Virus record (IMG/VR): IMGVR_UViG_3300011871_000042
Source of the DNA: an uncultured virus (IMG/VR IMGVR_UViG_3300011871_000042)
Taxonomy: Duplodnaviria; Heunggongvirae; Uroviricota; Caudoviricetes
Strand: one strand, 5' to 3'
DNA length: 20,000 bases
The notes under the pieces are model-generated. The model did no database searches. It was not told the origin of the DNA and saw nothing but the letters and a program-made list of their open reading frames with translations. The position numbers and the translations under genes are program-made. Of the stretch, positions 805 to 8,221 are shown piece after piece (the stretch's first letter is position 1; every line of letters starts with the position of its first letter).

Positions 805-1560
805 TTATTGACCTAAAAGAAATTTGGTTTGACCTAATAAATCATTAGCGCTATAAGGTTTAGGAAGGAAGCTATCCACGCCCTCATGTGCTCCTATTTT
901 AAAATGTAGTTCAACATTTCCTGTAACAACAATAATTGGAATGTCAGATAAGGCAAGTGTTTCTTTCATTCTTGTGACTAAATCTAATCCATTAAGTCTT
1001 GGCATATCAACATCCGTAACAACTAGATCTGGTTTTTTCTCTCTCATTTTTTCTAAAGCATCAATACCGTCTTCTGCTGTTATAATATTATAGTCTTTTT
1101 CTAATGCTCTAGTAGCACTTTTTAAAGATGTTTTTGAATCGTCAACAATTAATATAGTAGGCACTTTTTCCTCAGCTCTTGTAATGTTAATATTCGAAAT
1201 ATTATTATTTAAATCCAAGTCTAAGGATTGTTTAAGAATTTCATTATCTGGAACATTATGAGATCCTAAAACGTCAAGAACAGCATCATTTCTTATTTTG
1301 CTATTATCTTGCTTATCTTGAGGAATTAAACGAGGTCTAACTTTTATTTTTTTATTCTTTTTTTCTTCATCTTCATCAATAACAATTCCATCGGGATTTC
1401 CCGGAGAATATCTTTTTCTTGTATTTTTTTGTTGCTTTTCTTTTTCTTGTAAGTTTTTTATTTCCAATTGCTTTTTCTTATTTTTTTGATTCAATAAAAA
1501 AATAATAACAATTGAGGCTAACAAAACAGCACCACCAGATAGTATAAATAAATTATTCAT
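805..1560 (-). CDS. Membrane-anchored response-regulator receiver (CheY-like REC) protein without output domain
   Basis: N-terminal hydrophobic helix (LFILSGGAVLLASIVIIFLL), a charged linker and a C-terminal REC domain: ILIVDDS, PDLVVTDVDMPRLNG (phospho-Asp), IPIIVVTG, FLPKPY. GAGG RBS upstream. Confidence 0.9.
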   Translation of the reverse strand: MNNLFILSGGAVLLASIVIIFLLNQKNKKKQLEIKNLQEKEKQQKNTRKRYSPGNPDGIVIDEDEEKKNKKIKVRPRLIPQDKQDNSKIRNDAVLDVLGSHNVPDNEILKQSLDLDLNNNISNINITRAEEKVPTILIVDDSKTSLKSATRALEKDYNIITAEDGIDALEKMREKKPDLVVTDVDMPRLNGLDLVTRMKETLALSDIPIIVVTGNVELHFKIGAHEGVDSFLPKPYSANDLLGQTKFLLGQ

Positions 1561-1755
1561 TTTTTCCTCATATTTTCTTAAAACTCTTTATTATTTACTG
1601 TCTAAGTAAAAAAAAGTAAATAGCAAAATATGAAAACGATATTTATTTTATTAGAAATTTGTAATTATTATTAAAATATTATATTTTCAGAGTAGTATAT
1701 CATAATTTGAATTAAGTGATATTATAATAAATATATTAACCATTAAGAGATAGAT

Positions 1756-2733
1756 ATGGATAAAAATAGAATTTCCAATCATAATTGGATTTGTAGAACA
1801 CTAACTGGAACAATAGCATTAGAAGAAACTTCTATGACACTTAAACAAAGAAATTTTCTAAGGCAATTATCTAAACCCGTTCGTGTTAGTGATCTTTACA
1901 AAATATTAAAAGAAAAATATCCGAATGATTACAGTAGAACAAGTGATTTTGTAGAAATCGTTAATTTTACAAATAAAAAAATATGGATAGAAAAGGTCGA
2001 AAAACCTCAACTATTAGAAGAATCTGATAGTAAGAAAGATGATTCTGAACATTCTCTTGAAGATTCAAGGGATAGTTCATCTCTGCCTGAAGAATTATTA
2101 AACCTATCAAGAAAAGCTCAAAGTGGTTATAGTGAAGAAAGTAACGTCTTTGCTGTAGAATTTGAAGATCCAGAAGAAAAAGAAGATATTAAAAAATGGT
2201 TTAATGAGGCAGATGAATATGAAGAACAACAAGTTGAATTTATTCATGATGAGCAAACTAAAGATTTAATTTTGAAATTAGGATTAGGCTCTGTAAATTC
2301 AAATAATATGGATGAGTTTGAAATTCCTGAAGATAATCCATTTATTAGTAAAGGTGGTAATGTAAGTAAGACAGAAGCTGCCGAACAGGTATTAAACTTT
2401 TTAGATCAATTTGATGAAAAAGATTTAGAGGATAATATTTCAGATGAAGAAGATAGTGAAAAAGAGATTTTTTATAATCAAGAAGAAAATATTAACCAAA
2501 TCTTCAACCAAGAAAAAGAAATAGTAGAAGATAAAGAAAATATTCATGAAGTAGAGCAAAAAAAAGAAGAAGATAATGTTAGGGAAATATCATCCGTTGA
2601 TAGAGAAAGTAAAAGACAGGAGAGATTAAGTAAAAGAAATAACTTACCTCCTATTAAAAAAAATGAACCCAAAAAAGAACAAGGTATACTTGGAAGTTTA
2701 AAAAATGGTATAAAAAAAATAATTGGAAAATAA
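1756..2733 (+). CDS. Hypothetical protein: small N-terminal domain, long acidic low-complexity region, C-terminal amphipathic helix
   Basis: 325-aa ORF with an E/D-rich middle, ending GILGSLKNGIKKIIGK. Confidence 0.75.
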   Translation: MDKNRISNHNWICRTLTGTIALEETSMTLKQRNFLRQLSKPVRVSDLYKILKEKYPNDYSRTSDFVEIVNFTNKKIWIEKVEKPQLLEESDSKKDDSEHSLEDSRDSSSLPEELLNLSRKAQSGYSEESNVFAVEFEDPEEKEDIKKWFNEADEYEEQQVEFIHDEQTKDLILKLGLGSVNSNNMDEFEIPEDNPFISKGGNVSKTEAAEQVLNFLDQFDEKDLEDNISDEEDSEKEIFYNQEENINQIFNQEKEIVEDKENIHEVEQKKEEDNVREISSVDRESKRQERLSKRNNLPPIKKNEPKKEQGILGSLKNGIKKIIGK

Positions 2734-2739
2734 GTAAAT

Positions 2740-3774
2740 ATGTATAAAGATTTTTTAGAAAAATTAGAAGATGAAGAAAATTTAAAAGATCGAGAGCTAT
2801 GGATTGAATTAGCTTATATCAATAATCCCTTAGTTGAGAAGAAAATAACTCAAAAAGGATATAGTTTTCTTAGTCCTATATTAAAGAAGTCTGATAATTT
2901 AGAAGAAGTAATTACCCCACTTCTTCTTTTGTGCTATGATAAAGAAATACCTAATAAAAATGAAATCCTTTCCAGATGGCTTGCTGAAACATTAATACAA
3001 GAAAAATTCACTAAAAGTAAAAATACAATAAATTATAGAAATCATCAACAAGAAAAGTTATTTATGTTTTTTATTGAACAAAATAATATAGATATGATAG
3101 AAAAAATAATTTATTGGAGTAAGGAAATGCCTTATCCTCATAAAGTTATAAGTTATGAAGATGTAAAAAAATATATATTTAAAAATCTTTCAATAGAAGG
3201 ATTAAAAAATTTTAGTTCTTCATGGAGTGACAATGTTTGGCTAACTAAATGGAAATTTGAAAAAAATTTATGGGATTACGAGCCTCATGACTTTGAGGCC
3301 AATCCTGAAAGTTTCTGGCCTATAGAAAGGCAATCATTTAATTTAGATTGGATGAAGGCCGTGTTAGAAGCAGGTTGTCCAACAAACATGTTAATGCAAG
3401 GTTTTTTTGATGAAAAAGAAATAGAAACAATAATGTTAAGAATATTAAAGCTTTCTTTTTATTTCCATAATCATGAATATCATAATAAAAATAACGAAAA
3501 TATAAAAAAGTTATGGATACGTGATGAAAAATATTTAATGAAAATGTTAAGCTTATTTGTTAGTCATGGAGGAAAAATAGAAGGCAATTGGAATGGTATC
3601 GCTTGGTGGGAAGAATGGAGAAATTTAAGGAAAAATATAAAGGATTGGACTAGTTGGAATGAACAAACATTATCATACATTGATAGTTTTGCTCAACAAC
3701 ATGAAATTAATAAAAAAATGAGTATAAGTATGGCTCATAAAAAAGTAGAAAAAAATCTTAAAGAAAGAATATAA
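2740..3774 (+). CDS. Hypothetical protein (Trp-rich)
   Basis: 344-aa ORF starting 6 nt after the previous stop, so probably co-transcribed. No family recognised. Confidence 0.75.
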   Translation: MYKDFLEKLEDEENLKDRELWIELAYINNPLVEKKITQKGYSFLSPILKKSDNLEEVITPLLLLCYDKEIPNKNEILSRWLAETLIQEKFTKSKNTINYRNHQQEKLFMFFIEQNNIDMIEKIIYWSKEMPYPHKVISYEDVKKYIFKNLSIEGLKNFSSSWSDNVWLTKWKFEKNLWDYEPHDFEANPESFWPIERQSFNLDWMKAVLEAGCPTNMLMQGFFDEKEIETIMLRILKLSFYFHNHEYHNKNNENIKKLWIRDEKYLMKMLSLFVSHGGKIEGNWNGIAWWEEWRNLRKNIKDWTSWNEQTLSYIDSFAQQHEINKKMSISMAHKKVEKNLKERI

Positions 3775-3781
3775 AAAATGC

Positions 3782-3811
3782 TTGACTTGAATGTTGATTT
3801 TCGTATATGAT
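3782..3811 (+). promoter_or_regulatory. sigma70-type promoter for the leader / Pth2-like operon
   Basis: TTGACT (3782-3787), 18-nt spacer, TATGAT (3806-3811). Confidence 0.6.
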
Positions 3812-3867
3812 GGTTTCGTTGAGCAAATCAACATACTTTAAACAATAAAACAAATAGGAAAATAAAT

Positions 3868-3969
3868 ATGAAACACTAGACTTTAAATGTAAGAGCACCT
3901 CCACCTTGGATTATTAATTTATTCATGCAGTTCTATTATATAAAATTTAATAATCAATCAAAAAGGTGA
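3868..3969 (+). promoter_or_regulatory. Putative leader peptide / translational attenuator MKH*TLNVRAPPPWIINLFMQFYYIKFNNQSKR* (in-frame TAG at codon 4, RAPP arrest-like motif)
   Basis: AGGA RBS at 3856-3859, ATG 3868, TAG 3877-3879, AGA GCA CCT CCA CCT (RAPPP) 3892-3906, TGA 3967-3969. Predicted pairing of CACCTT 3902-3907 with AAGGTG 3963-3968 (downstream SD) and of GATTATTAA 3909-3917 with TTAATAATC 3947-3955. Confidence 0.65.
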
Positions 3970-3974
3970 AAATT

Positions 3975-4412
3975 ATGACTACTTTAAATATCGAAAACAA
4001 ATCTTTTATTCTTTCTAAAGAAAAAGCATTAGAAGCTAAATCTATCTGGAAAGATCTATCAAAAAATAAAAAAGCAACATTATCTCATCATGTATTTTAT
4101 TTCTTATTAATATCACATGATCCAGAATTAGTGTTTAAAAAAGCTTTTTCTCCATTAGTAAATTCCAATAAAATTCAAAATGTTGGTGGTGATGTCTACT
4201 TTGCTGTCAAACAAGAATTAGGAAGTTTATCTTCTAAAAATTTAGAATTTAAATATATTGAGCCTTGGATTTCCATCTTATTGAATGAAGATGAATATAA
4301 AATAAAAGGTCATTGGTCTAAAATTGTTGAAACAGAATCTGAGCTTATTAATGATATTCGTAAAAAAGCTCAACTTGTTTTGGATTTTTTTAATGGTAAA
4401 AAAGAGGTTTAA
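3975..4412 (+). CDS. Hypothetical protein, first gene of an operon with the Pth2-like hydrolase
   Basis: The ORF track starts at GTG 3966, but ATG 3975 follows the SD AAGGTG (3963-3968) at 6 nt and is the more likely start. Motif-like segments HHVFYFLL and AFSPLVNSNKIQN. Ends 3 nt before the next ATG. Confidence 0.75.
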   Translation: MTTLNIENKSFILSKEKALEAKSIWKDLSKNKKATLSHHVFYFLLISHDPELVFKKAFSPLVNSNKIQNVGGDVYFAVKQELGSLSSKNLEFKYIEPWISILLNEDEYKIKGHWSKIVETESELINDIRKKAQLVLDFFNGKKEV

Positions 4413-4415
4413 TAA

Positions 4416-4790
4416 ATGTATTTAAAATATGATGGCAAGGCTCCTTTTGAAAAAGATGAAGCTAAATATGTATATGTATTAATCAGAACGGATTTATCAT
4501 TAGCTCAGCAAGGCGTACAGGCTGTTCATGCTGGTATGGCTGCTATACATGAATTTGGTGGTTTAACGGATGATACTCGTTTAGCAATGCTTTCTGTTAA
4601 TAGTGAAAAGGAACTTGAACTTTGGGCAGAAAGACTTGAAATGAATGGAATTAACTTTAAAATATTTTGGGAGCCTGATAATAATACTGGATGGTCAGCA
4701 TTAGCAACAGCACCAATTAGTAGACAAGAAGGGAAAGTGTTAAAAAAGTTAATGAGATGGAATCCTGAAAGAGATCTGATGGCAGCATAG
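4416..4790 (+). CDS. Peptidyl-tRNA hydrolase II (Pth2/PTRHD1)-like protein
   Basis: Pth2-fold pattern: YVYVLIRTDL...AQQGVQAVHA, LSVNSEKEL, GINFKIFWEPD...SALATAP...LKKL. GAGG RBS upstream. Ends LMAA-TAG-TAA. Confidence 0.8.
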   Translation: MYLKYDGKAPFEKDEAKYVYVLIRTDLSLAQQGVQAVHAGMAAIHEFGGLTDDTRLAMLSVNSEKELELWAERLEMNGINFKIFWEPDNNTGWSALATAPISRQEGKVLKKLMRWNPERDLMAA

Positions 4791-4799
4791 TAAAAATAT

Positions 4800-4830
4800 A
4801 ATAAAAAGGAAGCGCAGCTTCCTTTTTATT
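4800..4830. terminator. Bidirectional intrinsic terminator
   Basis: AATAAAAAGGAAGC-GCA-GCTTCCTTTTTATT between convergent genes. Confidence 0.9.
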
Positions 4831-5077
4831 TGATTAATGAAAGTTTTGGTTTTTTATAATAAGGTTTATCTAGCATAGGTTTCTCAAATCTTTCTAATTG
4901 AGGAAAAGTTTTCTCTAATGCTTCATATCTACTACTTGCTAATACATCTTTTGTTTTTATTCCTACTTTATTAAGATTGATCAATAAATTTAATGTAACA
5001 TCATTACTTTCGATAGAAATAAAATCATTAAGTTCTGTATCAAACCATACTTTATATAAAACTTGATTATCTTTCAT
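4826..5077 (-). CDS. Small hypothetical protein with an SspB-like C-terminal tail (KKPKLSLIK)
   Basis: 83-aa ORF with an AGGAAGGA RBS upstream on the minus strand; its stop lies within the terminator. Confidence 0.7.
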   Translation of the reverse strand: MKDNQVLYKVWFDTELNDFISIESNDVTLNLLINLNKVGIKTKDVLASSRYEALEKTFPQLERFEKPMLDKPYYKKPKLSLIK

Positions 5078-5200
5078 TTATCCTTCCTATTGATATTTTA
5101 ATACTATGTCTATATCATACATATAATATATAAAAAAACAAAAAAAATAGTGAAAGTAAGTACGAAAGTGTGATATAAAAGAAACAACAGAGGAGACACT

Positions 5201-6343
5201 ATGGAAAAAAGTACAAAAAGTTCTTGGCAAGAAGTTGTCTTTAAAACAAAAGAATGGCATAAAACATTAATTCAATTTGAATTAACAGATGAGTTAAGCC
5301 AACCACTAACAGCTTATAATCCTATTTTATGTGAAAAGGAATGGGATGCTATCCAAGCAATAAAAAAATGGAGAAATGAATCTGGTTTACATTTTTCTTT
5401 ACAAGATTTTGATGATAATGAAAGAATTTCATTTGAAAAATTAACAGAGAAAAGTAAAAACGTTTATTTTAAAAAGAATGATGCCAAACCATATAAAAAA
5501 GTATTTTATGTTCCTTTTGCTGTTTGGAATGATGATGTTGATGCTGCTCCAGATTTTATTCCATTAAAAGATAAGACAATAATAAGACAATATGCTAGTA
5601 GTTTATATAATAGTTTAAAAATAAGAGCTTTAAATTCCATGAATACTTTTTTTAATGGGGTTAAAGTAGGAACTGAATATGGATTTGAAACAGGAAGTTT
5701 GTGGTTAAAATCAAATATAGATAAATTATTACAAGATGGCATAGACCTATCTGAAATGGAATTAACAGATATAGATGAAAATTTAATTCATAGTCTTAGT
5801 GGGGTAACGAAAGAATTTCAGGAAGAATGGCTACAATCGGCATTAATACCAATAGTAATAGCTGCAACTGAATATGAAGATATTTCAGATTTTGATTTTA
5901 ATTATGATGGTCAGTTAGATGTTGAAATGAAAAGCTTAAAAACCATGAGAGCTGATTTTGAACAACCCATGAGTTTGAATAAAGCTTTAAAAAGATTGGA
6001 AGCTCTGAAATTTTCTTTATGGGCAAAAAGCGTAGTTTATGATAATTTCGTAGAAGGAGGAGTAAAAAGAGAAAGCGTTATCCAATTTCATATAAATAAT
6101 GGTGATGTGGTATACGTAAGTGTGGCTGTAATGGATATAGATAAAAATGATGAAGAATTGATTACTCTTACATATGGAAGAAGAATTAATGATCATTATG
6201 AAATACAAGAAACATTATTACCTTGGGTAATGTGTGCTGATCCTAGAATGACTTGGAGTGTTATGTATACCGAAGATGACTTTGAAGAAGATAATTTACC
6301 CAATAACTATAAAATTACTTATGAGAACACTACCATACATTAA
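5201..6343 (+). CDS. Hypothetical acidic protein
   Basis: 380-aa ORF with a strong GAGGAG RBS, followed by a terminator; ends TTIH. No family recognised. Confidence 0.8.
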   Translation: MEKSTKSSWQEVVFKTKEWHKTLIQFELTDELSQPLTAYNPILCEKEWDAIQAIKKWRNESGLHFSLQDFDDNERISFEKLTEKSKNVYFKKNDAKPYKKVFYVPFAVWNDDVDAAPDFIPLKDKTIIRQYASSLYNSLKIRALNSMNTFFNGVKVGTEYGFETGSLWLKSNIDKLLQDGIDLSEMELTDIDENLIHSLSGVTKEFQEEWLQSALIPIVIAATEYEDISDFDFNYDGQLDVEMKSLKTMRADFEQPMSLNKALKRLEALKFSLWAKSVVYDNFVEGGVKRESVIQFHINNGDVVYVSVAVMDIDKNDEELITLTYGRRINDHYEIQETLLPWVMCADPRMTWSVMYTEDDFEEDNLPNNYKITYENTTIH

Positions 6344-6344
6344 T

Positions 6345-6370
6345 AAAAAAAGGCCATCTGGCCTTTTTTT
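6345..6370. terminator. Bidirectional intrinsic terminator
   Basis: AAAAAAAGGCC-ATCT-GGCCTTTTTTT between convergent genes. Confidence 0.9.
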
Positions 6371-7053
6371 TATTTGGTAAGATTACTTCTGAAGCAAACT
6401 AAAGCATCTGGTTTAAGTTGGAAAAGTTCAGCAGGACGGTGTTTACCTGTTAAAACTTCACCTGTTTCTTCAAGAAAATCTAATTCATTTATTTTCTTTC
6501 TAAAAGCAGATTTATCAATTGGTGTACCTAAAACTTGCTCATAAACCTTTTGCAATTGTGTTTTAGTAAACTTTTTAGGCAACAAATAAACAGGAAGCGT
6601 AGAGTAGTTTACTTTATTTCTTAATCTTTCTAGTGCCATTTCAATAATGTTTTCATGATCGAAAGCAAGGCTGCCTTTTTTAATTTCATCAACAGCTTTC
6701 CACTCAATACCTGTAACGTTGCGCCCTGCCTGAGCATTTTCTACTTCTTCCCACGGCATTAAAGATACATAAGCAATACTAATAGACCAACCACGAGAAT
6801 CACGCTTAACAGAACCAAAAGTATGTAGTTGTTCAAAATAAGATGATTGAACACCTGTTTTTTGGAATAAAACTCTATTTACAGAATCATCTAAAGTTTC
6901 ATCTTGATCGGTAAAAATAAAACCACCGGGCAAGCCTAATTTACCTGCATAAGGTTCTTTCTCTCTCTCAACAAGTAAAACATGTAGTTTTTCATTTTTT
7001 AATGTCAGGATAACAGCATCAACTGAAGCAATAGGTGTATCATATTCTTTCAT
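6370..7053 (-). CDS. nrtR: NrtR-family transcriptional regulator (Nudix-like domain + winged HTH)
   Basis: SVDAVIL...LHVLLVER..EPY.G..GLPGGF, a degenerate Nudix box (DETLDDSVNRVLFQKTGV), FEQLHTFG...RDSRGWSISIAY, LAFDH, and a C-terminal wHTH FTKTQLQKVYEQVLG...KSAFRKKI...HRPAELF. AGGAG RBS. Confidence 0.92.
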   Translation of the reverse strand: MKEYDTPIASVDAVILTLKNEKLHVLLVEREKEPYAGKLGLPGGFIFTDQDETLDDSVNRVLFQKTGVQSSYFEQLHTFGSVKRDSRGWSISIAYVSLMPWEEVENAQAGRNVTGIEWKAVDEIKKGSLAFDHENIIEMALERLRNKVNYSTLPVYLLPKKFTKTQLQKVYEQVLGTPIDKSAFRKKINELDFLEETGEVLTGKHRPAELFQLKPDALVCFRSNLTK

Positions 7054-7073
7054 CTTTATCTCCTAATTTTAAC

Positions 7074-7110
7074 TTAGTGTAATAATACCACTATCTTATA
7101 TTAAAATCAA
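7074..7110 (-). promoter_or_regulatory. nrtR promoter with overlapping palindromic NrtR-type operator
   Basis: Minus strand TTGATT (7110-7105), 17 nt, TATTAT (7087-7082) with a TGn extension. Operator TTAGTGTAATAATACCACTA (7074-7093, TAGTG-N9-CACTA) covers the -10. Confidence 0.75.
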
Positions 7111-7228
7111 TATATTTATTCTTATTATTGTTTTTTAACATTATTATATAAAATTCAGTAAGTTAGAGTAATATTTTGAATTTTATTTTTTTTGTATTAC
7201 TATGTACAAATTACCAGTGGAGGTCAAC

Positions 7229-7543
7229 ATGAAAAATGATACTATAGATTCAACAGTGATAGAAAAAAAGTCCGACACAAGGATTCAAAAACCTTCAATG
7301 TATAATGTTATATATTTAAATGATGACTATACTACTATGGAATTTGTAATCTGGACTTTAATGAAATTTTTTAATAAAAATGAAGATCAAGCTGTCTTGA
7401 TAACTCAAAGCATTCATAAGGAAGGTAGAGGCGTTGCGGGATTATATTCAAAAGAAATTGCTGAAACAAAAATATATGAAGTACAAAATATAGCTAGGCT
7501 TAATGATTTTCCTTTAGTTTTAATAATGGAAAAAAGCGAGTAA
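7229..7543 (+). CDS. clpS: ATP-dependent Clp protease adaptor ClpS
   Basis: PSMYNVIYLNDDYTTMEFV...IHKEGRGVAGLYSKEIAETK...FPL. GGAGGT RBS precedes ATG 7229, preferred over the ORF-track start 7202. Confidence 0.93.
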   Translation: MKNDTIDSTVIEKKSDTRIQKPSMYNVIYLNDDYTTMEFVIWTLMKFFNKNEDQAVLITQSIHKEGRGVAGLYSKEIAETKIYEVQNIARLNDFPLVLIMEKSE

Positions 7544-7552
7544 GGAAAAATA

Positions 7553-8221
7553 ATGACTTCACCCTATTTAAAACAATCCATTATATGGTTATCTATTAGC
7601 AAGGAAATAAATACCTTAGAAAATAATATCAATAAATCTCCTGATAATGAAAGGCGTCAGAAATTATGGTTATCTTTATCAGAAAGACTTATTTATTTAA
7701 CAAAAATGAATATAAGTGATGAAAATACAAAAAAAATAACATTGGGTATTATACGGTATTTGAGATGTTTGTTTTTTTGGAATTGTCATAGATGGGATGA
7801 ACTAGAGTATGAAGTAAATATTGGAATAAAAGAAGATGTTGATTCATCTATTTATTTAATGATTAAAGGTTTTATTTATTTAAGACCTTTAGCTAACCCC
7901 TCAGTAGTTTCAGAGGTGTGGAGTGAAGGTTTTCCTTTTGATAAGAAAAAAGAATTACTTGCTTATGCTCAAAAATGTTTTAAAAAAGCAATAAAAAAGT
8001 CAAAAAGTAATCAAGGATCTATTAATATAGCTATTAAATGGACCAATGCTTGGATGTTATTAATATCTGGAAATATTGAAAAATCTGAAAAGTGTGTTTT
8101 AGAAGTATGGAGCTTAGAAGAAAATTTTGGTGAAGGGTGGTCATTATGGATGAGATGGTTAGGTGGTATTATAAGTGAAAAAGAACATATAAAATTAATA
8201 AAATGTCTAAAAAATACCTAA
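7553..8221 (+). CDS. Hypothetical helical (possibly TPR-like) protein
   Basis: 222-aa ORF 9 nt after clpS with an AAGGA RBS; TPR-like segments (AYAQKCFKKAIK, AWMLLISGNIEKSEKC). Fold call is weak. Confidence 0.65.
   Translation: MTSPYLKQSIIWLSISKEINTLENNINKSPDNERRQKLWLSLSERLIYLTKMNISDENTKKITLGIIRYLRCLFFWNCHRWDELEYEVNIGIKEDVDSSIYLMIKGFIYLRPLANPSVVSEVWSEGFPFDKKKELLAYAQKCFKKAIKKSKSNQGSINIAIKWTNAWMLLISGNIEKSEKCVLEVWSLEENFGEGWSLWMRWLGGIISEKEHIKLIKCLKNT

What the first reader, a model, noticed from the sequence alone, without database searches (positions are those of the whole stretch)
3856..4790. Amber-stop plus RAPP arrest-motif leader controlling a Pth2-like operon: candidate stop-codon-readthrough sensor
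Seen: downstream of a sigma70 promoter, an AGGA RBS precedes ATG AAA CAC TAG, and the same frame continues TLNV-RAPPP-WIINLF... to TGA at 3969, overlapping the SD of a hypothetical + Pth2-like operon. The ORF track misses it. Established: RAPP/RAGP is the core motif of the ribosome-arrest peptides ApdA, ApdP and SecM; UAG is decoded by RF1; Pth enzymes recycle peptidyl-tRNA. Inference: normally the ribosome makes MKH and terminates, leaving the operon off. If UAG termination fails (RF1 shortage or trapping, miscoding drugs, or an amber-suppressor tRNA such as those of recoded phages), the ribosome reaches RAPP, stalls and switches on a translation-rescue module. TAG ends only 2 of the 21 genes here, so its use looks deliberate. 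I do not know of this architecture being described.
Basis: partly seen in the sequence, partly recalled or inferred. Interest (0 to 1): 0.92.

Follow-up and report, generated by a model that had tools for sequence, protein, structure and literature searches.

The report
Stop-gated RAPP arrest leader before Pth2-like operon
A short leader in front of a two-gene operon (an unknown protein plus a peptidyl-tRNA-hydrolase-2-like protein) has a tiny start-and-stop reading frame followed, in the same frame, by a ribosome-stalling RAPP peptide, which could let the cell switch the operon on when ribosomes fail to stop at stop codons.

Summary
AGGA (3856-59), ATG AAA CAC TAG (3868-79), then in frame TLNV-RAPPP... 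to TGA (3967-69), inside the Shine-Dalgarno (SD) sequence of gene A (3975-4412). Gene B follows (4416-4790).

Four other assemblies carry the same letters, so the TAG is not an error.

Three diverged lineages (window/L003; L004/L005; L007) all keep SD + ATG + 1-2 codons + in-frame stop + TLNxRAPP.
- All five nucleotide changes in the conserved codons are synonymous.
- The RAPP frame is the only frame open down to gene A's start site.
- RAPP occurs nowhere else in six frames of the window or of these loci.
- In every lineage the Pro codons pair with gene A's SD.

B has a Pth2 fold, but a weak sequence match and Gln where Pth2 has its GK lysine. A has no known fold or family.

My reading: a RAPP arrest-peptide attenuator that ribosomes enter only by passing a stop codon. 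L007 uses TAA, so an amber- or RF1-specific sensor is not supported. Readthrough, stalling and regulation are untested, and only three lineages were reachable.

The parts
3782..3811 (+). sigma70-like promoter TTGACT-18-TATGAT
   Evidence: 10 of 12 matches. TTGACT is kept in window, L004, L005 and L007 in alignment A2. The transcription start is not determined.
3856..3859 (+). Shine-Dalgarno (AGGA) of the mini-ORF, 8 nt before the ATG
   Evidence: AAGGA lies 7 nt before the mini-ORF ATG in L004, L005 and L007.
3868..3879 (+). mini-ORF ATG AAA CAC TAG (M-K-H-stop)
   Evidence: Identical in L003, L004 and L005; replaced by ATG TTG TAA in L007. No variant letters in contigs of the 4 runs, all of which cover this place.
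3880..3969 (+). post-stop leader ORF TLNVRAPPPWIINLFMQFYYIKFNNQSKR, ending at TGA 3967-3969 inside gene A's SD
   Evidence: 0 stops in this frame against 3 and 3 in the other two frames. P(open | shuffle) 0.072 in the window, 0.028 in L004, 0.033 in L005, 0.049 in L007.
3892..3906 (+). [quoted passage not shown]
   Evidence: the only RAPP in six frames of the window, L004, L005 and L007. The mechanism is taken from PMC10951233 (abstract and passages); it was not tested here.
3896..3900 (+). CACCU, 5' arm of the SD-sequestering helix (an alternative register is CACCUU, 3903-3908)
   Evidence: MFE and centroid folds. The same pairing appears in L004 (CACCUUUAA:UUAAAGGUG) and L007 (CCUC:GGAG).
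3909..3955 (+). inner AU-rich stem-loop (arms 3909-3922 and 3940-3955)
   Evidence: The arm sequences GATTRWTAA and TTAWTAATC are kept in the alignments.
3963..3968 (+). SD of gene A (AAGGTG), 3' arm of the helix
   Evidence: Modelled P(unpaired) of the SD: 0.28 free, 0.29 with a ribosome at the mini-ORF stop, 0.36 with a ribosome on RAP|P. In L004 0.06/0.06/0.39, L005 0.03/0.03/0.46, L007 0.30/0.41/0.56.
3975..4412 (+). gene A, 145 aa, helical, no known family or fold
   Evidence: No Pfam or NCBIfam hit. AF2 pLDDT 81. Foldseek best E 0.74. VIA wide best Z 5.0. 50 representatives at E<=1e-3 among 1.84 billion.
4416..4790 (+). gene B, 124 aa, Pth2-fold protein; ends TAG followed directly by TAA
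   Evidence: AF2 pLDDT 87.7. Foldseek ranks 1-11 are all Pth2 or Pth2-family entries, E 1e-5 to 2.4e-4, TM 0.58-0.73. PF01981 only E 0.024. Gln aligns to the GK lysine of a solved peptidyl-tRNA hydrolase.
4800..4830 (.). hairpin terminator between the operon and the convergent ORF 4826-5077
   Evidence: 14 pairs. It was called on the minus strand; the sequence is also T-rich after the stem on the plus strand.

Best explanation
This is a translational attenuator built on a RAPP ribosome-arrest peptide, and ribosomes can enter the arrest frame only by passing a stop codon.

Proposed sequence of events:
1. One mRNA runs from the promoter (3782-3811) to the terminator (4800-4830). It carries the leader, gene A and gene B.
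2. Ribosomes load at AGGA/ATG (3856/3868), make M-K-H and normally terminate at TAG (3877-79).
3. A ribosome sitting at that stop reaches only to about 3889. The helix that pairs CACCU (3896-3900, inside the Ala-Pro codons) with AGGUG (3964-68, gene A's SD) therefore stays closed, and A and B are poorly translated.
4. A ribosome that passes the stop translates T-L-N-V-R-A-P. This could happen by near-cognate or suppressor tRNA decoding, or because release is scarce or blocked.
5. [quoted passage not shown] This is the known RAPP mechanism.
6. The stalled ribosome covers about 3886-3912, which includes the 5' arm of the helix. Gene A's SD is freed, and A and the tightly following B are translated for as long as the stall lasts. 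Rare readthrough events would thus be amplified.
7. When the stall resolves, the ribosome runs down the open frame and terminates at TGA (3967-69) within the SD. That may additionally couple to initiation of A.

The output is a Pth2-fold protein, presumably acting on an ester-linked tRNA species, together with an unknown helical partner.

Shown: the sequence anatomy, its conservation, the open frame, and the predicted pairing.
Inferred: readthrough, stalling, the direction of control, and the enzyme activity.

Rough odds: about 0.75 that this is a translated, functional RAPP leader controlling A-B; about 0.45 that passing the stop codon is the gate and the signal.
For: Anatomy:
- Read directly from the sequence.

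Conservation in 3 diverged lineages. Coding DNA of L004/L005 is about 66% identical to the window. L007's B is 57% identical and its A 32-35% identical.
- All keep SD + ATG + 1-2 codons + in-frame stop + TLN[V/C]RAPP.
- Between window and L007, the 7 conserved codons carry 5 nucleotide changes (TTA>CTG, AGA>CGA, GCA>GCG, CCA>CCT). All are synonymous. Random substitution gives this with probability 0.0003-0.0007.
- The RAPP frame has 0 stops from the mini-ORF stop to gene A's SD or ATG in all 4 distinct sequences. The other two frames have 3-7 stops. P(open | shuffle) is 0.072, 0.028, 0.033 and 0.049.
- RAPP is absent from every other place in six frames of the window (20 kb) and of L004, L005 and L007 (6.3 kb each).

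Gate:
- In the window lineage no ATG, GTG, TTG, CTG or ATH codon lies between TAG and RAPP.
- The TAG is present in L003 and in contigs of 4 of 4 laid runs.

RNA structure:
- Minimum-free-energy folds of all three lineages pair the Pro-codon stretch with gene A's SD, around a conserved inner stem.
- Masking the footprint of a RAPP-stalled ribosome raises the SD's P(unpaired) in 4 of 4 sequences. Masking a ribosome at the mini-ORF stop leaves it essentially unchanged in 3 of 4 and raises it from 0.30 to 0.41 in L007.

Literature:
- RAPP is depleted from proteomes. RAPP uORFs sit upstream of genes of diverse function. ApdA and ApdP need only short N-terminal regions (PMC12992588, sections 10 and 13 and passages).

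Operon output:
- B has a Pth2 fold.
- A and B also co-occur, in reversed order, in a 52%-GC locus, L017.
Against: - Only three independent lineages. Window and L004/L005 share an almost identical 34-nt block, so they are not independent for the frame relation. L007 being in frame has a 1-in-3 chance on its own.
- The helix is weak. The window leader folds no better than shuffles (z 0.51). L004 gives z -2.23 and L007 z -0.14.
- The modelled opening of the SD in the window itself is small, 0.28 to 0.36.
- RNAalifold gave a positive covariation term, only 2 of 18 pairs with compensatory change, and a total energy of only -3.31 kcal/mol.
- Between window and L004/L005 the block ATGAAACACTAGACTTTRAATGTAAGAGCACC is nearly invariant even at synonymous sites. 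Nucleotide-level constraint therefore also exists and is unexplained.
- Known RAPP arrest peptides are uninterrupted ORFs with the motif near the C-terminus, usually with a signal or membrane segment (PMC12992588, section 13). Here RAPP would be residues 9-12 of a 33-codon frame.
- Nothing shows that an 11- to 14-residue nascent chain stalls.
- L004/L005 (TTG) and L007 (ATT, ATA, CTG) do have possible weak start codons after the stop.
- No expression, ribosome-profiling or genetic data exist. The whole genome is not held, so release factors and suppressor tRNAs could not be inspected.
- B lacks the GK lysine and scores below Pfam's threshold.
Confidence: 0.45

Rival explanations
1. The same RAPP attenuator, but ribosomes enter it after normal termination of the mini-ORF rather than by readthrough. 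A post-termination ribosome that is not recycled resumes on the next codons, or reinitiates at a weak start. The 2-3-codon mini-ORF would work like a 'minigene' of the phage-lambda bar type. The signal would then be failure of ribosome recycling, or peptidyl-tRNA drop-off and Pth capacity. Alternatively, entry is constitutive and the regulated step is release of the short RAPP-stalled peptidyl-tRNA.
For: - The mini-ORF has a good SD and only 2-3 codons in all lineages.
- L004/L005 have TTG two codons after the stop. L007 has ATT directly after it, and CTG at the Leu position.
- A Pth-like output gene fits a drop-off signal. Minigenes and early drop-off load Pth (search listings and abstracts of PMC2490762 and PMC10192219).
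- Restart after the stop when RRF is lacking is recalled from the literature; I did not check it here.
Against: - The window lineage has TTA at the Leu position and no near-cognate start between TAG and RAPP. A start-codon-dependent version therefore fails there. This lineage was found in 18 runs of 10 studies.
- Start-independent resumption would not need the in-frame relation that all lineages keep.
- No SD precedes the post-stop codons.
Confidence: 0.2
2. The narrow version the first reader proposed: an amber-specific sensor of RF1 shortage or of amber-suppressor tRNAs, for example from recoded phages.
For: - TAG is rare as a stop here, 2 of 21 ORFs.
- TAG is kept in window/L003 and in L004/L005.
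Against: - L007 has TAA in the same role. Both release factors read TAA, and an amber suppressor does not.
- The TAG-bearing lineages share the whole 34-nt block, so they count as one observation.
Confidence: 0.1
3. An RNA-only element. The conserved block is an anti-SD hairpin, or a binding site for a protein or small RNA. RAPP is then a by-product of the CACCUCC-like anti-SD sequence, and the mini-ORF is an unrelated small uORF.
For: - GCACCTCC resembles an anti-SD sequence and pairs with gene A's SD.
- Near-total nucleotide identity of the block between window and L004/L005, including synonymous sites.
Against: - An anti-SD needs only about 5-7 nt. It does not explain conserved T-L-N and Arg with synonymous changes.
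- It does not explain a frame kept open for 29-35 codons in AT-rich DNA, in the RAPP frame only.
- No Rfam family matches at E<=1 in 3760-4000.
Confidence: 0.12
4. Chance arrangement with no function.
For: - Short ORFs and weak hairpins are common in 25%-GC intergenic DNA.
- The fold z-scores are unimpressive.
Against: - RAPP is expected 0.017 times per 20 kb, yet it is present at the homologous place in 3 lineages and nowhere else.
- The product of the open-frame probabilities for window, L004 and L007 is about 1e-4 (my multiplication of the values).
Confidence: 0.03

Closest known systems
RAPP-type arrest peptides (ApdA, ApdP, CruR, Streptomyces RAPP/RGPP uORFs) and SecM (RAGP)
   Same: - An R-A-P-P motif in a small upstream ORF.
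- The motif is otherwise avoided in proteomes.
- The predicted stall site lies in one arm of a helix that hides the downstream gene's SD, which is the secM-secA and mifM-yidC2 logic.
- Downstream genes of diverse function are already reported (PMC12992588, section 13).
   Different: - The frame is interrupted by a stop 1-2 codons after its only start codon.
- There is no signal peptide or membrane segment.
- RAPP sits near the N-terminus (residues 9-12), not the C-terminus.
- The downstream gene is Pth2-like. The main text of PMC12992588 holds no 'Pth', 'stop codon' or 'readthrough'; its supplements were not read.
prfB (RF2) autoregulatory recoding site
   Same: An early in-frame stop, preceded by an SD-like element, makes expression depend on how well termination works. 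(Recalled knowledge, not checked here.)
   Different: - prfB uses a +1 frameshift within the gene's own coding sequence.
- Here the continuation is in the zero frame, in a leader, and would act through an arrest peptide and an RNA helix on separate genes.
AMD1 readthrough tail (eukaryotes) and plant eRF1 readthrough autoregulation
   Same: - AMD1: ribosomes that read through a stop are stalled by a downstream arrest peptide, so rare readthrough is integrated over time (PMC13025110, abstract in the listings).
- Plant eRF1: its level is sensed through readthrough (PMC5397192, abstract in the listing).
   Different: - Both are eukaryotic.
- AMD1's tail follows the main ORF and represses it through ribosome queues.
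- Here the element precedes the genes and is predicted to activate them.
Drug- or stress-sensing leader ORFs (ermC-type attenuators; toiL upstream of topAI-yjhQ)
   Same: A ribosome stalled in a short leader remodels mRNA structure and switches on downstream genes (PMC12121999, abstract in the listing; ermC is recalled).
   Different: Those leaders are uninterrupted ORFs, and their stall depends on a drug or a hungry codon, not on passing a stop.
Peptidyl-tRNA hydrolase 2 (Pth2, PF01981)
   Same: - B's predicted fold matches archaeal and human Pth2 structures 3erj, 2zv3, 1wn2, 1q7s and 1xty.
- The R-x-D-L ... V-Q-x-x-H-A motif aligns.
- The nearest Atlas clusters carry PF01981 in 25-40% of members and are mostly phage.
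- Pth2 is known in jumbo phages (PMC7824862, passages).
   Different: - Sequence score is below Pfam's threshold.
- Invariant Gln31/Gln32 sit where the solved enzyme has G-K-K.
- B is paired with an unknown protein A.

Membership tests
RAPP-type ribosome arrest peptide | An R-A-P-P (or RGPP/RAGP) core that is conserved among homologues | tested here: met
   RAPP is present in window/L003, L004, L005 and L007 at the homologous place, with synonymous codon changes.
RAPP-type ribosome arrest peptide | An uninterrupted small ORF with its own start codon | tested here: not met
   The only SD-led ATG is separated from RAPP by an in-frame TAG (TAA in L007). There is no start codon after the stop in the window lineage.
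RAPP-type ribosome arrest peptide | The stall site is placed so that the stalled ribosome exposes the downstream gene's SD | tested here: met
   The predicted helix between the Pro codons and gene A's SD appears in 3 of 3 lineages. The modelled SD opening is 0.28 to 0.36, 0.06 to 0.39, 0.03 to 0.46 and 0.30 to 0.56. This is prediction only, and the effect is weak in the window.
RAPP-type ribosome arrest peptide | An N-terminal signal or membrane segment (the 'monitoring substrate' type) | tested here: not met
   At most 8-11 residues precede RAPP. There is no room for a localisation signal.
RAPP-type ribosome arrest peptide | Demonstrated translation arrest | not testable with these tools
   Needs toeprinting, a PURE translation system or ribosome profiling.
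Pth2 (PF01981) | Sequence match above the curated threshold | tested here: not met
   E 0.024, 15.3 bits against a cut-off of 23. The A1 profile against PDB gives E 0.047 to a peptidyl-tRNA hydrolase.
Pth2 (PF01981) | Pth2 alpha/beta fold | tested here: met
   AF2 pLDDT 87.7. Foldseek ranks 1-11 are all Pth2-family chains, E 1e-5 to 2.4e-4, TM 0.58-0.73.
Pth2 (PF01981) | Lysine of the G-K motif before V/A-Q-x-x-H-A (catalytic according to recalled literature) | tested here: not met
   The HMM alignment puts invariant Q31/Q32 of B opposite G-K-K of 24bt_A. The alignment is weak, so activity remains open.
prfB-like termination-sensing recoding | An early in-frame stop after an SD, with expression requiring that the stop be passed | tested here: inconclusive
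   The stop and the SD are present and conserved. That passing the stop is required, or happens at all, is not shown.
Known anti-phage defence systems (PADLOC) | A match of A or B to a defence-system model | tested here: inconclusive
   Only A against LmuC, E 0.011, 13.5 bits. B has no match.

The most novel reading that the evidence does not exclude
This would be a bacterial 'termination-failure integrator'. A 2-3-codon start-stop frame acts as a gate, and the RAPP arrest peptide behind it acts as a latch. Each rare ribosome that passes the stop becomes a long-lived stalled ribosome that holds the operon's ribosome-binding site open. The causes could be release-factor shortage or trapping, miscoding, an ochre or amber suppressor tRNA (for example from a recoded phage), or failed recycling. 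In this way the cell would measure stop-codon fidelity and answer with a Pth2-like tRNA-ester hydrolase and its partner. That answer could be a rescue response or an infection-triggered response. In three full-text literature searches I found no prokaryotic leader described with this logic.
Probability: 0.4. Interest if true: 0.9.

Novelty: new variant of a known kind. Interest (0 to 1): 0.75.

Why it matters
Arrest-peptide leaders are known to sense protein export, membrane insertion, metals, amino acids and drugs. Release-factor level is known to be sensed by the prfB frameshift.

A leader that places a stop codon in front of an arrest peptide would be a new design. It would report the fidelity of termination itself and turn rare events into a lasting signal.

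It would also:
- give a natural reporter for stop-codon readthrough in bacteria;
- link a bacterial or phage-type Pth2-like protein, and an uncharacterised partner family, to termination stress;
- show that surveys of arrest peptides based on annotated ORFs miss interrupted ones.

The design can be tested directly with a few reporter constructs.

Tried and rejected
Whole genome and relatives
- No genome is held for the window. The records behind L003, L004, L005 and L007 are not held either. Release factors, suppressor tRNAs, taxonomy and other leaders of the same design could not be examined.

Search for more lineages
- Genome contigs with the single protein found none. With the profile it found only 2 distant loci.
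- Viral contigs with the profile found 1 distant high-GC locus, L055, with no A gene and no leader seen.
- A degenerate DNA pattern of the TLNxRAPP codons in viral contigs gave 10 loci. All were unrelated frames inside other sequences.
It was repeated with L004 read with TAG=Q (40 aa), and no candidate was found.

Distant B homologues
- I scanned the 500 nt before the B homologue in all 54 loci. For the A-B loci L003-L005 and L007 that span does not reach the leader. Only L015 had RAPP there, 425 nt upstream, in a long open frame that I did not follow.
- L014, L015 and L021 share an 'RSPP' reading that is really a GC-rich hairpin.

RNA families
- Rfam: no match at gathering scores in the window, and none at E<=1 in 3760-4000.
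- No tRNA or tmRNA gene was found.

Protein A
- Foldseek best E 0.74. VIA wide best Z 5.0. The Atlas gave no usable hit.
- I scanned 30 of its 50 representative relatives. None had a Pfam family above its cut-off.
- PADLOC gave only LmuC at E 0.011.

A-B complex prediction
- Verdict 'no answer', score 0.00. This is no evidence either way.

Leader as a duplicate of gene A's start
- Local alignment against shuffles gave 139/500 (window), 4/500 (L004), 29/500 (L005) and 340/500 (L007). It is not consistent across lineages, so I kept it only as a note.

Considered from the sequence and rejected
- Frameshifting or hopping over the stop. RAPP lies in the zero frame, and no matching take-off and landing codons give a sensible product.

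RNA libraries
- Contigs from three metatranscriptome runs cover the leader. Contigs cannot show transcription, strand or ends, so I draw no expression claim from them.

Earlier notes of this scan
- Nothing by place, sequence or words.
Full report
**What is in the sequence**

The window is AT-rich (GC 0.24-0.35) and looks like bacterial chromosome. It carries genes for a response-regulator receiver, an NrtR/Nudix protein, ClpS, an HD phosphohydrolase, NAD-dependent DNA ligase, an RNB exoribonuclease and ankyrin repeats, alongside many ORFs with no family.

Between the ORF ending at 3774 and the ORF starting at 3975, one search shows:
- TTGACT-18-TATGAT (3782-3811; 10 of 12 matches, where such sites as a class are not enriched: 9 found, 8.2 expected);
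- AGGA (3856-59);
- ATG AAA CAC TAG (3868-79);
- in the same frame, ACT TTA AAT GTA AGA GCA CCT CCA CCT TGG ... down to TGA (3967-69).

That TGA lies inside AAGGTGA, the Shine-Dalgarno (SD) sequence of gene A (ATG at 3975, 145 aa). Gene B (4416-4790, 124 aa) follows after TAA TAA. A hairpin terminator sits at 4800-4830. Stop usage is TAA 18, TAG 2, TGA 1 among 21 ORFs.

**Is the TAG real?**

L003 is an independent metagenome contig, 99.8% identical to window 1416-7788, and it has the same leader. I laid contigs of four public runs on 3700-4800. They show no other letter, insertion or deletion where they cover the stretch. Two of them (X14, X3) span it in one piece. The other two leave gaps inside gene A but cover the leader. 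The stretch is held with half or more of its sampled words by 18 runs, and 19 holders come from 10 studies.

**Is it more than chance?**

RAPP occurs exactly once in the six-frame translation of the 20-kb window. A second-order Markov model of the window expects 0.017 per 20 kb. It also occurs exactly once in each of L004, L005 and L007, always in this leader.

**Related loci**

No genome is held for the window. B has 16 homologues in the large protein collection. A profile of them recovered 52 loci from metagenome contigs. The A-B pair with the upstream intergenic region is present in:
- L003, which is the same strain as the window;
- L004 and L005, syntenic over about 4.4 kb at about 66% DNA identity;
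- L007, where B is 57% and A 32-35% identical.

A-like proteins were found in 5 of 54 loci (L003, L004, L005, L007, L017). In L017 (52% GC) the order is B then A, which supports a functional tie between the two genes. L006 has B alone, behind a terminator-like hairpin.

The leaders read as follows.

| Lineage | Leader |
|---|---|
| Window / L003 | AGGA-N8-ATG AAA CAC TAG ACT TTA AAT GTA AGA GCA CCT CCA CCT ... |
| L004 / L005 | AAGGA-N7-ATG AAA CAC TAG ACT TTG AAT GTA AGA GCA CCA CCT ... |
| L007 | AAGGA-N7-ATG TTG TAA ATT GCT AAA ATA ACT CTG AAT TGC CGA GCG CCT CCT ... |

All three lineages therefore keep an SD-led ATG, one or two sense codons, an in-frame stop and then T-L-N-(V/C)-R-A-P-P.

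Three results speak for translation of the post-stop frame:
- Between window and L007, the seven conserved codons carry five nucleotide changes, all synonymous. Random substitutions achieve that with probability 0.0003-0.0007.
- The RAPP frame has no stop from the gate to gene A's ribosome-binding site (29-35 codons). The other two frames have 3-7 stops each. Shuffling gives an open frame with probability 0.072, 0.028, 0.033 and 0.049.
- The frame always ends at gene A's start region. In the window, TGA lies inside the SD. In L007 it is an ATATGA overlap. In L004/L005, TGA ends 13 nt past the A of gene A's ATG.

The peptide after RAPP is not conserved, but nucleotides of a stem are.

In the window lineage no ATG, GTG, TTG, CTG or ATH codon lies between TAG and RAPP. 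The only way into the frame there is through the stop. L004/L005 have TTG, and L007 has ATT, ATA and CTG, as conceivable weak starts.

**RNA structure**

In every lineage the minimum-free-energy fold pairs the Pro-codon stretch with gene A's SD, around an AU-rich inner stem-loop:
- window: CACCU 3896-3900 with AGGUG 3964-68;
- L004: CACCUUUAA with UUAAAGGUG;
- L007: CCUC with GGAG.

RNAalifold finds the same architecture. The SD sequence and its partner differ between lineages yet stay complementary.

The structure is weak, however:
- z-scores against shuffles are 0.51, -2.23 and -0.14;
- RNAalifold gives only 2 of 18 pairs with compensatory change and a positive covariation term.

I modelled ribosome footprints as unpaired stretches. 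The mean P(unpaired) of the SD was:

| Sequence | Free | Ribosome at mini-ORF stop | Ribosome with R-A-P in P site |
|---|---|---|---|
| Window | 0.28 | 0.29 | 0.36 |
| L004 | 0.06 | 0.06 | 0.39 |
| L005 | 0.03 | 0.03 | 0.46 |
| L007 | 0.30 | 0.41 | 0.56 |

The direction fits 'terminate = closed, stall = open', but the effect in the window itself is small.

By my arithmetic, the mini-ORF ATG lies 30 nt (10 codons) upstream of the predicted P-site Pro codon in the window and in L004/L005. That is about one ribosome footprint. In L007 the distance is 39 nt.

**The genes**

B:
- It scores only E 0.024 (15.3 bits, cut-off 23) against PF01981 and has no NCBIfam or direct PDB sequence hit.
- Its AlphaFold model (pLDDT 87.7) matches Pth2 structures at Foldseek ranks 1-11: 3erj, 2zv3, 1wn2, 1q7s, 1xty and 1rlk, with E 1e-5 to 2.4e-4.
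- A profile alignment to a solved peptidyl-tRNA hydrolase aligns R-x-D-L and V-Q-x-x-H-A. It puts B's invariant Gln31/Gln32 opposite G-K-K. That this lysine is catalytic is recalled, not checked.
- The nearest Atlas clusters carry PF01981 in 25-40% of members and are mostly phage.
- Pth2 genes are described in jumbo phages as possible ribosome-rescue enzymes (PMC7824862, passages).

A:
- It has a confident helical model (pLDDT 81), but no fold match, no Pfam, NCBIfam or PHROG family and no Atlas hit.
- It has few relatives: 50 representatives at E<=1e-3 among 1.84 billion. I scanned 30 of them and none has a Pfam family above its cut-off.

**Most likely mechanism**

Most ribosomes make M-K-H (M-L in L007) and terminate. 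The helix keeps gene A's SD hidden.

[quoted passage not shown] This is the mechanism solved for ApdA and ApdP, and a minimal RxPP is reported to suffice (PMC10951233, abstract and passages). RAPP arrest is reported as refractory to EF-P, and ApdA/ApdP as needing only short N-terminal regions (PMC12992588, abstract, sections 10 and 13, and passages).

The stalled ribosome occupies the 5' arm of the helix and frees the SD. Because such stalls are long-lived, rare events would be amplified. After release, the ribosome terminates at gene A's start region, which may add translational coupling.

Everything from 'passes the stop' onward is inference.

**What the signal is**

L007 uses TAA, so an RF1- or amber-specific sensor is not supported. 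General termination failure, ochre-type suppression, or failed recycling or drop-off after a 'minigene'-like mini-ORF all remain possible. I rank zero-frame readthrough first, because it is the only route that works in all three lineages and that explains the in-frame relation.

The near-invariance of the 34-nt block between window and L004/L005, even at synonymous sites, is not explained by the peptide alone. It may reflect stop-codon context or RNA structure.

**Comparison with known systems**

The element works like a SecM/MifM/ApdA-type arrest leader and carries their core motif. It fails two features of that family: an uninterrupted ORF with its own start, and a localisation signal.

RAPP uORFs upstream of diverse genes are already reported, but from annotated ORFs only (PMC12992588, sections 13 and 24). 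The main text of that paper does not mention Pth, stop codons or readthrough. I did not read its supplements, which list the downstream gene classes.

Closest in logic:
- the prfB frameshift site (recalled);
- the AMD1 readthrough-then-arrest tail in eukaryotes (PMC13025110, abstract);
- plant eRF1 autoregulation (PMC5397192, abstract).

Literature searches:
- 'stop codon readthrough' + 'arrest peptide' + 'leader' + 'release factor': 5 papers, 4 listed.
- 'readthrough' + 'RF1' + 'upstream ORF' + 'sensor' + 'bacteria': 7 papers, 6 listed.
- 'minigene' + 'peptidyl-tRNA drop-off' + 'Pth': 6 papers.

Judged from titles and abstract starts, none showed a bacterial leader with an in-frame stop ahead of an arrest motif.

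**Verdict**

This is a new variant of a known kind (an arrest-peptide attenuator) with one feature I did not find described, a stop-codon gate.

The evidence is purely comparative and rests on three lineages. Its weakest parts are the marginal RNA thermodynamics in the window, the unknown activity of B and A, and the absence of any expression or stalling data.

Noticed in passing
window 3791-3800 and 3825-3834: A perfect 10-nt inverted repeat (ATGTTGATTT / AAATCAACAT) brackets the -10 hexamer of the leader's promoter. L004 has a different 6-nt inverted repeat in the same place (ACACTT/AAGTGT). L005 and L007 show none of 6 nt or more there. It may be an operator, or a hairpin at the end of the upstream gene's transcript.
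   Followed up: partly
window 3880-3888 and 3981-3989: ACTTTAAAT (the T-L-N codons of the leader) recurs exactly in codons 3-5 of gene A. In L004 the leader around the stop resembles gene A's RBS and start (4 of 500 shuffles score as well). The similarity is not significant in the window (139/500) or L007 (340/500). The leader may derive from a duplicated gene-A start.
   Followed up: partly
window 4788-4793: Gene B ends TAG followed at once by TAA, a tandem stop. It is one of only two TAG-terminated ORFs in the window.
   Followed up: no
L014 1-246, L015 about 1460-1820, L021 about 2660-3020: Upstream of distant, higher-GC B homologues lies a conserved GC-rich hairpin (GGGTTGTGG...CCACAACCC) followed by T's. 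After it comes a 5-codon ORF (MSGFA or MSGFV) whose stop overlaps the GTG start of the B homologue. This is a different, also unexplained, upstream element for the same gene family.
   Followed up: no
window 3700-4800: Near-identical DNA is held by runs labelled microbial mat, gut, chicken gut, wastewater, soil and mouse metagenomes: 18 runs with half or more of the sampled words, with 19 holders from 10 studies. The organism is either very widespread or a recurrent contaminant. I did not pursue this.
   Followed up: no
L017 180-1072: In a 52%-GC metagenome locus, the B homologue (110 aa) comes first and an A-like protein (175 aa) follows. That is the reverse of the window's order.
   Followed up: partly
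window 1756-3774 and 5201-6343: Three sizeable ORFs flank the operon (325, 344 and 380 aa). They have no Pfam, NCBIfam or PADLOC match. They are kept in synteny in L004/L005.
   Followed up: no
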